Source of the DNA: a virus
Taxonomy: Duplodnaviria; Heunggongvirae; Uroviricota; Caudoviricetes
IMG/VR virus record: IMGVR_UViG_638275541_000001
Reading direction: 5' to 3' (one strand)
Length of the DNA stretch: 64,000 nt
Below the pieces are notes generated by a model that had not been told where the DNA came from, did no database searches, and saw only the letters and a program-made list of their open reading frames with translations. The translations under genes were made by a program, and so were the position numbers. Within the stretch, counting starts at the first letter, position 1; each line of letters starts with the position of its first letter. Below, piece after piece: positions 2,553 through 2,696 of this stretch.

Positions 2553-2696
2553 AATTATCTTTGTAGATAAGTTATTAAGCTTACCTGTGAGTATGCGACC
2601 ACAAAGGGTGAAAGGGTAAATTCTAGATTTAAACCCAAAAAGGCACATCGCTACAGACCTTAAGCAAGTCTGGGTAGCTTATCTACAAAGATAATT
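2553..2696 (+). repeat. 19-bp perfect inverted repeat flanking ~106 nt, abutting tRNA-Lys
   Basis: AATTATCTTTGTAGATAAG (2553-2571) and its exact reverse complement (2678-2696); inner hairpin CAGAC/GTCTG. Confidence 0.55.

What the first reader, a model, noticed from the sequence alone, without database searches (positions are those of the whole stretch)
2553..2696. 19-bp perfect inverted repeat enclosing ~106 nt immediately upstream of tRNA-Lys
AATTATCTTTGTAGATAAG and its exact reverse complement flank a 106-nt segment containing its own hairpin (CAGAC...GTCTG). A perfect 19-bp stem is much stronger than terminators in this genome and has no T-run after it. It could be a miniature inverted-repeat element, a homing endonuclease target or remnant, or a large processing stem.
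Basis: seen in the sequence. Interest (0 to 1): 0.5.

Follow-up and report, generated by a model that had tools for sequence, protein, structure and literature searches.

The report
Closing stem of phage Ro60-linked RNA
The 19-bp inverted repeat is the closing stem of a conserved, roughly 144-nt structured non-coding RNA that sits inside the tRNA gene cluster of a Felix O1-type phage, right after a tRNA-mimicking "Y RNA" and 1.2 kb downstream of a phage gene for a Ro60-like RNA-binding protein; it is not a mobile element.

Summary
Arms 2553-2571 and 2678-2696 are a perfect 19-bp inverted repeat (23 bp as RNA with G·U pairs). It is the only repeat of its class in the 64-kb window. It is single-copy and present at the same position, 4-5 nt before tRNA-Lys(UUU), in every relative examined. 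Pairing is kept by compensatory and wobble changes that work only in + strand RNA. The mobile-element and homing-target readings are therefore rejected; the "processing stem" reading is partly right.

The window is Felix O1-like. ORF 38-1378 has a Ro60 fold (TROVE ring plus vWA). The gaps between tRNA genes downstream hold four units with a shared signature (7-bp AG…CU stem plus UACAGCAA). One of them (2425-2549) is a YrlA-type tRNA mimic that ends 3 nt before the repeat. The same units lie beside Ro-like genes in 40 of 75 unrelated phage loci (60 on the gene's strand, 0 on the other) and in mycobacteriophages. Long outer stems often wrap such units.

Best reading (confidence about 0.45): the repeat closes a Y-RNA-like partner RNA cut out of the tRNA precursor. 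Its interior exists as two sharply bounded alleles. It fails both known Ro-binding motif tests, so a Ro-independent processing stalk remains a serious rival.

The parts
2553..2575 (+). 5' arm of the closing helix (AAUUAUCUUUGUAGAUAAGUUAU); the perfect 19-mer is 2553-2571
   Evidence: 23 consensus pairs, 99.4% of cells paired across 14 variants, 4 pairs with changes on both sides.
2674..2696 (+). 3' arm of the closing helix (GUAGCUUAUCUACAAAGAUAAUU); the perfect 19-mer is 2678-2696; it ends 4 nt before tRNA-Lys
2576..2673 (+). 98-nt interior of the element, predicted as a multi-branch of 3-4 hairpins; exists as two alleles (type I here; type II in Mooglevirus, Suspvirus and some Felixounavirus)
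   Evidence: only 37-45% identical between alleles, while flanks in the same genomes are 97-99% identical.
2614..2636 (+). Interior hairpin with the invariant decamer AUUCUAGAUU (2620-2629, containing the palindrome UCUAGA); basal pairs differ between alleles (GGGU/ACCC versus AGC/GCU)
   Evidence: (longest invariant interior block).
2654..2672 (+). Interior hairpin CAGAC-CUUAAGCAA-GUCUG next to the 3' arm; conserved in both alleles with one compensatory pair (G-C to A-U); loosely resembles the stem-plus-motif of the neighbouring units but fails their signature
   Evidence: helix 2: 100% paired, 1 pair changed on both sides; signature and family model not met.
2425..2549 (+). YrlA-type tRNA-mimic Y-like RNA (module B). 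Closing stem AGACCGUU/AACGGUCU (2425-2432 / 2542-2549); motif UACAGCAA 2433-2440; V stem-loop 2456-2471; T arm 2476-2492; closed 7-bp acceptor-like hairpin 2493-2510; D arm 2513-2527. Ends 3 nt before the finding
   Evidence: layout as in Chen et al. 2014 (PMC4201824); not called as a tRNA by ARAGORN.
2338..2405 (+). Short Y-like unit (module A): AGACCAA stem, AUACAGCAA motif, UUGGUCU
1884..1941 (+). Short Y-like unit between tRNA-Met and tRNA-Asn
   Evidence: (E = 2e-6).
1717..1783 (+). Short Y-like unit between tRNA-Glu and tRNA-Met
   Evidence: (E = 8e-4).
2..1378 (+). Ro60-like protein gene (Pfam DUF2828 + DUF7788). The N-terminal ~13 codons lie before the window; the listed ORF starts at 38; the stop codon ends at 1378
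   Evidence: AF2 pLDDT 86; the top 8 PDB matches are all Ro60/TROVE (1yvr TM 0.65). The ortholog Bas63 gp130 was reported as Ro60-like.
1397..1517 (+). Two sigma-70-like promoter matches (1397-1425, 1488-1517) between the Ro-like gene and the first tRNA; candidate start of the transcript that carries the tRNAs and these RNAs
   Evidence: Consensus matches only; the number of sites in the region does not exceed shuffles.
2701..2776 (+). tRNA-Lys(UUU). RNase P cleavage at its 5' end would define the 3' end of the element (inference)

Best explanation
The inverted repeat is not a DNA-level element. It is the 23-bp terminal helix of a ~144-nt structured non-coding RNA (2553-2696), transcribed on the + strand as part of the tRNA-cluster precursor. 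This RNA is the last member of a cluster of Y-RNA-like RNAs (four stem-plus-UACAGCAA units, one a YrlA-type tRNA mimic) interleaved with the tRNA genes just downstream of the phage's Ro60-like protein gene. Proposed mechanism, all steps inferred: the precursor is cut by RNase P at 2700/2701, which fixes the 3' side. The long, almost perfect AU-rich duplex is a substrate for host RNase III, which would separate the RNA from the abutting tRNA mimic, since only 3 unpaired nt lie between them. The remaining helix protects the RNA from 3'-5' exonucleases, as in Y RNAs, whose paired 5' and 3' ends enclose a large effector-binding interior. The interior, with its conserved AUUCUAGAUU hairpin and CAGACC hairpin, is the part that contacts a protein partner, most plausibly the Ro60-like protein or something it recruits. 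Shown here: the helix is selected as RNA on the + strand; the element is single-copy, syntenic and universal in the subfamily; a Ro60-fold gene and bona fide Y-like units are adjacent; long outer stems wrap such units in unrelated phages. Inferred, not shown: transcription, cleavage sites, stability, and any binding to the Ro60-like protein.
For: RNA-level selection: on 14 variants 99.5% of 385 cells pair, against 27-45% when the partner is slid. Five pairs changed on both sides, against 0 in every slid control. The covariation score is 0.224 against at most 0.062, and 0 of 500 shuffles reach it. 46 cells are G·U, which would be A·C on the other strand. HMD-P10 has three changes in the 5' arm; the two A-to-G changes become G·U and the third turns a U·G into C-G. 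Single-nucleotide indels in the interior rule out coding. Universality: all 25 viral contigs with module B have the element ending 4-5 nt before tRNA-Lys, in 16 variants; the same gap is present in Mooglevirus, Suspvirus and Felixounavirus. Context: ORF 2-1378 has a Ro60 fold and is a full-length homolog (33-35% identity, E ~1e-76) of mycobacteriophage 'Ro-like RNA binding proteins'. Module B has the published YrlA layout with a covarying closed acceptor hairpin. A model built only from the Felix group finds counterparts beside Ro-like genes in unrelated phages and in the gap right after the Ro-like gene of Faith1, Nicholas and Acquire49 (E = 9e-10, 9e-7, 3e-6). The strict unit signature occurs 60 times on the gene's strand, 0 times on the other, 0-1 in shuffles, in 40 of 75 loci, and exactly 4 times in the window, all in the tRNA cluster. 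Long-stem analogy: perfect repeats of 14 bp or more enclosing 100-160 nt start ~25 nt after the Ro-like gene in L045/48/49/52/53 and enclose a whole YrlA-like unit; in L019 one brackets the YrlA-like hit; the third unit in Faith1 has an extra outer helix. No promoter or terminator signal lies at the element. Y RNAs are described as a long 5'-3' stem around a large internal loop, and second Y RNAs as long hairpins.
Against: The element itself fails every sequence test for a Ro ligand. The published GNCGAAN0-1G / CGAA motif is absent from the window (only Sf13 has GCCGAAG; others have GCCGAUG; the window has UGCGACC). It does not meet the strict stem-plus-UACAGCAA signature. A family model built from 47 foreign units does not detect its inner hairpin at E <= 10. 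A covariance model of the element finds no homolog outside the Ounavirinae, so the link to long-stem elements elsewhere is by analogy, not homology. Its interior is only 37-45% identical between alleles while modules A and B are far better conserved, as expected if mainly the helix matters. At 144-151 nt it is larger than typical Y RNAs (80-130 nt). The Ro-like protein alone, expressed from a plasmid or in T7, counters the Ppl defence, so at least that activity does not need these RNAs. No expression, end-mapping or binding data exist. The strict signature was defined after seeing the first hits, although the opposite strand and shuffles act as controls.
Confidence: 0.45

Rival explanations
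1. A Ro-independent processing and stability stalk. The helix is simply an RNase III site, comparable to the stems that bracket 16S and 23S rRNA in their precursors or to T7 early RNase III sites. It splits the long tRNA-cluster precursor and/or shapes the 5' leader of tRNA-Lys(UUU). The enclosed ~100 nt are mostly a spacer with no partner protein.
For: A 23-bp nearly perfect AU-rich duplex meets the length requirement for E. coli RNase III (established knowledge; helix). The helix is strongly conserved by covariation while the interior is only 37-45% identical between alleles. The element fails all Ro-ligand motif tests. Only 3 nt separate it from module B and 4 nt from tRNA-Lys, so an endonuclease acting on duplex RNA is the simplest way to separate them. 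The Ro-like protein can act without phage RNAs against Ppl.
Against: It is the only long duplex in a cluster of 25 tRNA genes, so RNase III is not a general requirement for maturing this operon; RNase P alone can free tRNA-Lys. The interior keeps its length (~100 nt) and two conserved hairpins, one with a 10-nt invariant block and one with a compensatory change, in both alleles, which a spacer would not. Its position, directly after the YrlA-like unit in a Ro60-linked cluster, and the recurrence of outer stems around Y-like units in unrelated phages suggest more than coincidence.
Confidence: 0.3
2. An anti-defence or regulatory RNA of its own kind, unrelated to Ro60: for example a decoy for a host nuclease or sensor, or an RNA that dimerises or base-pairs through the exposed palindromic UCUAGA loop. 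The two interior alleles would reflect an arms race.
For: Two sharply bounded interior alleles segregate among phages whose flanks are 97-99% identical. An invariant AUUCUAGAUU with a self-complementary core is preserved in both. Phage tRNA clusters are known places for counter-defence functions (discussed in the PhageMaP preprint).
Against: There is no direct evidence and no similar described family: Rfam gives no hit. Type II is shared at 84-86% identity across three genera, in line with the divergence of module B, so the pattern may be one old replacement rather than ongoing diversification.
Confidence: 0.12
3. A DNA-level element: a miniature inverted-repeat transposable element, a homing-endonuclease recognition site or remnant, or a protein-binding or cruciform palindrome.
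For: Perfect 19-bp terminal inverted repeats in the window; HNH endonuclease genes nearby (ORF 2866-3360); the interior has been exchanged between lineages with breakpoints in the arms.
Against: Single-copy; no empty sites in any relative; no paired copies in bacterial genomes and none in E. coli. Presence is independent of the HNH ORF. The arms change through G·U-compatible substitutions that preserve RNA pairing on one strand only. The arms are not flanked by target-site duplications (GGT before, TAAT after).
Confidence: 0.03
4. A transcription terminator or attenuator, or a small protein-coding gene (some GenBank records annotate a 'hypothetical protein' over it).
For: A strong hairpin; short ORFs overlap it (2518-2619 +, 33 aa; 2418-2648 -, 76 aa); annotations in some records.
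Against: No T-run, and no terminator-like site was found; tRNA-Lys follows within 4 nt on the same strand and needs read-through. Single-nucleotide indels among close relatives and an unalignable second allele break any reading frame.
Confidence: 0.02

Closest known systems
Bacterial and phage Y RNAs: YrlA/YrlB of Salmonella and M. smegmatis, mycobacteriophage YrlA-like RNAs (Chen et al. 2014, PMC4201824), and Yrl1/Yrl2 of Thermus phage phiLo (PMC12135203)
   Same: Encoded within a few kb of a Ro60-type gene, on the same strand. Several RNAs per locus processed from one precursor. Paired 5' and 3' ends enclosing a large structured interior. One partner RNA in the locus (here module B, 2425-2549) is a tRNA mimic with V, T, closed acceptor and D arms in the YrlA order. 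'Second' Y RNAs are long hairpins.
   Different: The finding lacks the GNCGAAN0-1G / CGAA motif and also lacks the UACAGCAA signature of its own neighbours. It is longer (144 nt), has an unusually long helix without bulges, has no detectable homolog outside the Ounavirinae, and sits among tRNA genes rather than next to the Ro gene. Binding to the Ro-like protein is untested. The associated protein belongs to the divergent DUF2828/DUF7788 family, recognisable as Ro60 only by fold.
RNase III processing stalks: the stems flanking 16S and 23S rRNA in rRNA precursors, and T7 early-region RNase III sites (established knowledge, not tested here)
   Same: Complementary sequences flanking a structured RNA form a duplex of about two helical turns within a polycistronic stable-RNA precursor. 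Covariation preserves pairing while the sequence drifts.
   Different: The enclosed RNA is only ~100 nt and of unknown function. Cleavage has not been shown. It is the only such stem in a 25-tRNA cluster.
Phage T4 stable RNAs 'species 1' and 'species 2' (rnaC, rnaD) encoded in the T4 tRNA cluster (my own knowledge; not examined here)
   Same: Small stable structured RNAs of unknown function, co-transcribed with phage tRNAs and released by the tRNA-processing machinery.
   Different: No sequence comparison was made here. To my knowledge T4 has no Ro60-like gene, so the link is only positional.
Bas63 gp130, the Felixounavirus Ro60-like protein that counters the Ppl defence (PhageMaP preprint, 10.1101/2024.10.10.617714)
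   Same: By the paper's description, the same gene as window ORF 2-1378: structurally Ro60-like and directly upstream of the tRNA genes of a Felixounavirus. The authors proposed that Y RNAs lie in the tRNA region.
   Different: They suggested that some annotated tRNA genes are the Y RNAs and identified none. Here the candidates are separate units in the gaps between tRNA genes, plus the long-stem element. gp130 works against Ppl without them. The Bas63 sequence (MZ501086) was not inspected here.

Membership tests
Y RNA (Ro60-associated ncRNA, incl. YrlA/YrlB/Yrl) | Encoded close to a Ro60 ortholog on the same strand (Chen 2014 criterion: within 4 kb) | tested here: met
   The Ro60-fold ORF ends at 1378 and the element starts at 2553, both on the + strand.
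Y RNA (Ro60-associated ncRNA, incl. YrlA/YrlB/Yrl) | 5' and 3' ends pair into a long stem that encloses a large internal loop or module | tested here: met
   A 23-bp helix supported by covariation encloses 98 nt. The true RNA ends were not mapped.
Y RNA (Ro60-associated ncRNA, incl. YrlA/YrlB/Yrl) | Ro-binding sequence: GNCGAAN0-1G / CGAA near the 5' side, or a conserved bulged helix | tested here: not met
   The window has UGCGACC; type II has GCCGAUG; only Sf13 has GCCGAAG. The helix has no conserved bulge.
Y RNA (Ro60-associated ncRNA, incl. YrlA/YrlB/Yrl) | Physically bound and stabilised by the Ro60 protein | not testable with these tools
   Needs RIP/CLIP or EMSA.
Y RNA (Ro60-associated ncRNA, incl. 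YrlA/YrlB/Yrl) | Size 80-130 nt | tested here: not met
   144 nt stem to stem. It would be ~120 nt after a hypothetical RNase III cut.
Phage DUF2828-linked stem-plus-UACAGCAA units (defined here) | A, then a 6-7-bp stem starting AG, then [UA][UAG][UAC]?C[AC]GCA[AUC], with the 3' strand ending CU followed by G | tested here: not met
   The strict scan finds four units in the window (1717-1783, 1884-1941, 2338-2405, 2425-2549) but not the element or its inner hairpin. Family model R3 does not detect the hairpin at E <= 10.
YrlA-type tRNA mimic (applies to the neighbouring module B, not to the finding) | Order: 5' stem, V loop, T arm, closed acceptor-like stem-loop, D arm, 3' stem, with tRNA-like invariant nucleotides | tested here: met
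   Module B 2425-2549: T loop UUCGAUU, D loop AAUGGUA, U-G at positions 8-9, V loop starting CUAU, 7-bp acceptor hairpin with three covarying versions. The finding's own interior shows no T or D arm.
Miniature inverted-repeat transposable element | Multiple dispersed copies; presence/absence polymorphism; target-site duplication | tested here: not met
   Single-copy; no empty site in 25 contigs or in the GenBank relatives; no paired copies in bacterial genomes; flanks GGT / TAAT are not duplicated.
Homing-endonuclease target or remnant | Presence correlated with an adjacent endonuclease gene; conservation at the DNA level | tested here: not met
   The element is present in genomes that lack the HNH ORF 2866-3360. 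Substitutions preserve RNA pairing through G·U. Cleavage itself is not testable here.
Intrinsic terminator | GC-rich hairpin followed by a U-run | tested here: not met
   The stem is AU-rich and followed by UAAU and then tRNA-Lys; the terminator scan gives no hit.
RNase III substrate | About 20 bp or more of mostly uninterrupted dsRNA | tested here: met
   23 consecutive pairs including G·U.
RNase III substrate | Cleavage by RNase III in vivo or in vitro | not testable with these tools
   Needs end mapping in wild-type versus rnc hosts, or an in-vitro assay.
Any Rfam family | Score at or above the gathering threshold | tested here: not met
   No hit in 2273-2700, even at E <= 10, beyond chance-level matches.

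The most novel reading that the evidence does not exclude
The element is a new kind of Ro60-system RNA, or an independent anti-defence RNA. A long RNase III-cleavable helix would act as a 'cassette holder' for an exchangeable ~100-nt effector module (two alleles are known) presented next to a tRNA-mimic Y RNA. More broadly, the stem-plus-UACAGCAA units would define a large, undescribed family of Y RNAs partnered with DUF2828-type Ro60 proteins in hundreds of phages of Gram-negative, Gram-positive and actinobacterial hosts, using a recognition motif different from the canonical GNCGAA.
Probability: 0.2. Interest if true: 0.75.

Novelty: new variant of a known kind. Interest (0 to 1): 0.55.

Why it matters
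Ro60 and its Y RNAs are conserved from bacteria to humans, yet their function in bacteria and phages is poorly understood. The one phenotype known for the Felixounavirus Ro60-like protein (it counters the Ppl defence) came with only a guess about its RNA partners. This analysis gives concrete candidates in a tractable E. coli/Salmonella phage: four signature units, including a tRNA mimic, plus the long-stem element. It also shows that the same units accompany this protein family in very diverse phages. That makes several questions directly testable. Which RNAs does the phage Ro60 bind? What motif does it recognise? Does the long-stem RNA act as a partner, a processing device, or something else? 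For annotation, it explains a conserved "empty" 428-nt gap in about 250 phage genomes and shows that the 'hypothetical protein' calls over it are spurious.

Tried and rejected
1. Rfam scans of the tRNA region and of the gap alone, at E <= 1 and E <= 10: nothing except chance-level hits. One was Dictyostelium Class I RNA through the shared 'UACAGCAA' (E = 4.9), judged coincidental.

2. Direct sequence search of the Ro-like protein against PDB sequences: no Ro60 hit. The relationship is visible only by fold.

3. Supplementary tables of Chen et al. 2014, to obtain YrlA sequences or the phage list: not held. So a test against the authors' own covariance model was impossible, and I cannot say whether Felix O1 was in their 22 phages.

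4. A covariance model of the finding (R2) searched over 75 unrelated Ro-like loci: no homolog. The minus-strand self-hit only reflects the palindromic stem.

5. The idea that the inner hairpin (2654-2672) is a minimal copy of the neighbouring stem-plus-motif unit: rejected as membership. It fails the strict signature and a family 'mini-unit' model. That model also handled the real units poorly, because it cannot absorb their long interiors, so it bears only on the interior-less hairpin.

6. My first, broad motif regex was too permissive (+/- strand 1008 vs 584) and was replaced by the strict signature.

7. A permuted tRNA gene or a dimeric-tRNA artefact for module B: rejected, because the 3' and 5' acceptor strands pair with each other across a 4-8-nt loop and covary.

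8. Literature searches for Felix O1 or Felixounavirus transcriptomes and ncRNAs and for DUF2828: nothing relevant.

9. A guessed accession for Bas63 (MZ501111) turned out to be another phage. The correct one (MZ501086) was not inspected.
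Full report
**Observation.** The sequence is as described. AATTATCTTTGTAGATAAG lies at 2553-2571 and its exact reverse complement at 2678-2696, 106 nt apart. An inner hairpin CAGAC/GTCTG lies at 2654-2672. No T-run follows, and tRNA-Lys(UUU) starts at 2701. It is far beyond chance. The 19-mer with up to three mismatches occurs only at these two places, against 0.04 expected. It is the only inverted repeat with perfect arms of at least 14 bp and a 20-300-nt loop in the 64-kb window. The 151-nt segment folds with z = -5.45.

**Where we are.** The window is a Felix O1-type phage: the 428-nt gap 2273-2700 is 100% identical to Salmonella phage FO1a. The gap is present in about 250 GenBank phage records, almost always unannotated or carrying a 'hypothetical protein' call. 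The element lies in a cluster of 25 tRNA genes, all on the + strand. It occupies the last third of the gap between tRNA-Asp and tRNA-Lys.

**It is an RNA helix, not a DNA element.**
- I aligned 14 variants from Felixounavirus, Mooglevirus and Suspvirus.
- RNAalifold gives a 23-bp outer helix plus the 5-bp inner hairpin.
- On that structure 99.5% of 385 cells pair, against 27-45% when the 3' partner is slid by 1-3 columns. Five pairs changed on both sides, against none in any slid control. The covariation score is 0.224 against at most 0.062, and no shuffle out of 500 reaches the observed values.
- Forty-six cells are G·U pairs, which would be A·C mismatches on the opposite strand. Selection therefore acts on the + strand transcript, the strand of the tRNAs. 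For example, HMD-P10 has three changes in the 5' arm and none in the 3' arm; the two A-to-G changes give G·U.
- Single-nucleotide indels in the interior exclude a coding function.
- No promoter-like or terminator-like site lies at the element. Promoter-like matches lie at 1397-1425 and 1488-1517, upstream of the first tRNA.

**It is not mobile.**
- A scan of the viral contig collection anchored in the neighbouring module found 25 contigs. All carry the element ending 4-5 nt before tRNA-Lys, in 16 sequence variants.
- The six divergent GenBank relatives and SUSP2 keep the same gap.
- Relatives have essentially one place per record.
- The 19-mer occurs only as isolated single hits in 596 Gb of bacterial genomes, never as an inverted pair. 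The region has no match in 5,426 E. coli genomes.
- The HNH ORF at 2866-3360 is missing in several relatives that keep the element.

**The missed context, part 1: a Ro60-like gene.** ORF 2-1378, on the same strand with its N-terminus cut by the window edge, matches Pfam DUF2828 plus DUF7788. An AlphaFold model built on 36 homologs is confident (pLDDT 86, pTM 0.86). Its eight best matches among solved structures are all Ro60: Xenopus 1yvr (TM 0.65), human Ro60, D. radiodurans Rsr, and Thermus phage phiLo Ro60. All are full-length alignments at probability 1.00. vWA domains follow in the ranking. By tblastn the protein occurs in 708 phage records. It is a full-length homolog of the mycobacteriophage 'Ro-like RNA binding proteins' at 33-35% identity, E ~1e-76. 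The PhageMaP preprint had already noted that the Felixounavirus ortholog, Bas63 gp130, is structurally Ro60-like and counters the Ppl defence. Its authors only guessed that 'some tRNA genes are possibly Y RNAs'.

**The missed context, part 2: a cluster of Y-like RNAs.**
- Immediately upstream of the finding, 2425-2549 folds into a closing stem that encloses a V stem-loop, a T arm (GAGGG-UUCGAUU-CCUUC), a closed 7-bp acceptor-like hairpin (ACUCGGC-AGGU-GUCGAGU) and a D arm (GUGU-AAUGGUA-GCAC).
- This is exactly the order described for YrlA tRNA mimics.
- The acceptor hairpin covaries among relatives: ACUCGGC/GUCGAGU, ACCCUUC/GAAGGGU and ACACGU/GCGUGU. This excludes an artefact of two adjacent tRNA remnants.
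- A covariance model built only from the Felix group finds counterparts in unrelated phages whose Ro-like proteins are 39-47% identical. All hits are on the gene's strand and many abut the gene. Some of those hits are ordinary tRNAs, which share that strand.
- The model also hits the unannotated gap right after the Ro-like gene of mycobacteriophages Faith1, Nicholas and Acquire49, at E = 9e-10, 9e-7 and 3e-6.
- Folding the hits shows a common signature: A, a 7-bp stem beginning AG, a single-stranded UU(N)C(A/C)GCAA, a variable interior, and a 3' strand ending CU followed by G.
- That strict signature occurs 60 times on the Ro gene's strand and never on the other strand in the 75 foreign loci, with 0-1 in shuffles. 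It is present in 40 of the 75 loci. It occurs exactly four times in the window, all in gaps of the tRNA cluster: 1717-1783, 1884-1941, 2338-2405 and 2425-2549.
- Caveat: the signature was defined after seeing the first hits. The opposite strand and the shuffles serve as controls.

**How the finding relates to that cluster.** It starts 3 nt after the tRNA mimic. Long perfect inverted repeats enclosing 100-160 nt recur beside Ro-like genes elsewhere. In L045/48/49/52/53 one starts about 25 nt after the stop codon and wraps a complete YrlA-like unit. In L019 a 16-bp repeat brackets the YrlA-like hit. In L029 and L019 21-24-bp stems wrap tRNA-shaped bodies. In Faith1 the unit after the tRNA mimic carries an extra outer helix. 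Published descriptions of Y RNAs stress a long 5'-3' stem around a large internal loop, and second Y RNAs that are long hairpins. This makes 'terminal helix of a Y-like partner RNA' the best single reading.

**What speaks against it.**
- The element lacks the canonical GNCGAAN0-1G / CGAA motif in the window.
- It fails the signature of its own neighbours.
- Its inner hairpin is not detected by a model built from 47 foreign units.
- Its own covariance model finds no homolog outside the Ounavirinae.
- gp130 alone rescues T7 on Ppl hosts, so at least that activity needs none of these RNAs.

**Two alleles.** In bumzen, fBSPA4 and DaR-2019a the pre-region and module B are 97-99% identical to the window, and module A 87-99%. 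The arms drop to 78-87% and the interior to 37-38%. That interior is 84-86% identical to the Mooglevirus type. Type II is thus shared by three genera and looks ancestral. Type I, in the window and about 188 records, is a replaced or strongly diverged version. Both alleles keep the helix, the ~100-nt length, a hairpin with the invariant AUUCUAGAUU, and the CAGACC hairpin next to the 3' arm. This pattern fits a function centred on the helix, which favours the processing-stalk rival. It also fits an exchangeable effector module.

**Mechanism proposed (inferred).** The element is transcribed with the tRNAs. RNase P cutting at 2700/2701 sets the 3' side. The 23-bp AU-rich duplex is a plausible RNase III substrate that would separate the RNA from the abutting tRNA mimic. 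The remaining stem protects the RNA from exonucleases. The interior hairpins bind a partner, most plausibly the Ro60-like protein or something it recruits. None of these steps was tested.

**Verdict.**
- The mobile-element and homing-site interpretations are rejected.
- 'Processing stem' is partly right.
- That the element is a selected RNA structure in the tRNA-cluster transcript is very likely (my estimate about 0.9).
- That it belongs functionally to the Ro60/Y-RNA system is about 0.45.
- A Ro-independent processing stalk is about 0.3.
- The surrounding discovery appears not to be described in the literature I could search: identifiable Y-like units with a non-canonical motif, interleaved with tRNA genes, accompanying DUF2828-type Ro60 proteins across very diverse phages.

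Noticed in passing
window 1717-1783, 1884-1941, 2338-2405, 2425-2549: Four units share nearly identical closing stems (AGACCAA/UUGGUCU or AGACCGU/ACGGUCU), a UACAGCAA motif and a GGUCUGG 3' end. They fill gaps between tRNA genes. One is a YrlA-type tRNA mimic with a 7-bp closed acceptor hairpin, a feature that made M. smegmatis YrlA an RNase P substrate.
   Followed up: yes
window 2-1378 (+): The ORF upstream of the tRNA cluster (DUF2828 + DUF7788) has a Ro60 fold. The family is in 708 phage records, including Listeria, Staphylococcus, Enterococcus, Bacillus, Campylobacter, Vibrio, Aeromonas and jumbo phages, usually annotated as hypothetical or 'RNA-binding protein'.
   Followed up: yes
window 2620-2629: AUUCUAGAUU is the longest invariant block inside the element, across two otherwise unalignable alleles. 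Its core UCUAGA is self-complementary, so it might mediate loop-loop dimerisation or pairing.
   Followed up: no
window 2866-3360 (+): A 164-aa cysteine-rich, HNH-like ORF (no Pfam hit at E <= 0.001) is inserted between tRNA-Met and tRNA-Ile. It is absent in Mordin, fBSPA4, bumzen and Mushroom, where the two tRNA genes are 2-3 nt apart. This is a genuine presence/absence polymorphism typical of a homing endonuclease, but unrelated to the finding.
   Followed up: partly
window 3796-3874 (+): The Rfam tRNA model scores 31.7 bits here (above its gathering score of 29), but ARAGORN calls no tRNA. This may be a degenerate tRNA or another tRNA-like RNA in the 1-kb gap between tRNA-Ile and tRNA-Ser. 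Weak tmRNA-like hits lie at 3592-3664.
   Followed up: no
window 2280-2332 (+): Right after tRNA-Asp there is a conserved GC-rich hairpin (GGGCUAUUUAGCCC) and a second hairpin (CCCUUAAAG...CUUUAAAGG). They are 95-98% identical even in Mooglevirus. Function unknown; no U-run follows.
   Followed up: no
L029 5060-5158; L019 7534-7636: In unrelated phages with Ro-like genes, tRNA-shaped bodies (D arm, anticodon-like arm, T arm) are enclosed by 21-24-bp perfect stems, as if the acceptor stem were extended by complementary leader and trailer. This recalls the D. radiodurans Yrn1 orientation of tRNA-like features.
   Followed up: partly
L121 4380-4760, L122 4386-4780, L123 4368-4740 (mycobacteriophages Faith1, Nicholas, Acquire49): The unannotated gap after the 'Ro-like RNA binding protein' gene holds three tandem units (short; tRNA-like; short with an outer helix), each with UA(A)CAGCAA after a GGAC-type stem, followed by an intrinsic terminator.
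   Followed up: partly
L014 7381-11900: A contig whose Ro-like protein is 47% identical has the same layout as Felix O1: the Ro-like gene followed by 22 tRNA genes with interleaved units. A YrlA-like RNA exactly fills the gap between tRNA-Met and tRNA-Gly (9063-9187), and short units lie at 8423-8483 and 9760-9819.
   Followed up: partly
window 2339-2406: There is a weak Rfam match (E = 4.9) to Dictyostelium Class I RNAs, which also have a short 5'-3' stem followed by CCUUACAGCAA. It is probably coincidence, but the shared UACAGCAA after a terminal stem is curious.
   Followed up: no
L052 7367-7510 versus L049 7370-7566: Two related phages share the same ~19-bp outer stem after the Ro-like gene. 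In L052 the enclosed T arm and acceptor hairpin are deleted, leaving the stem around a reduced interior. This is a natural example of an outer stem surviving loss of the tRNA-like module.
   Followed up: no
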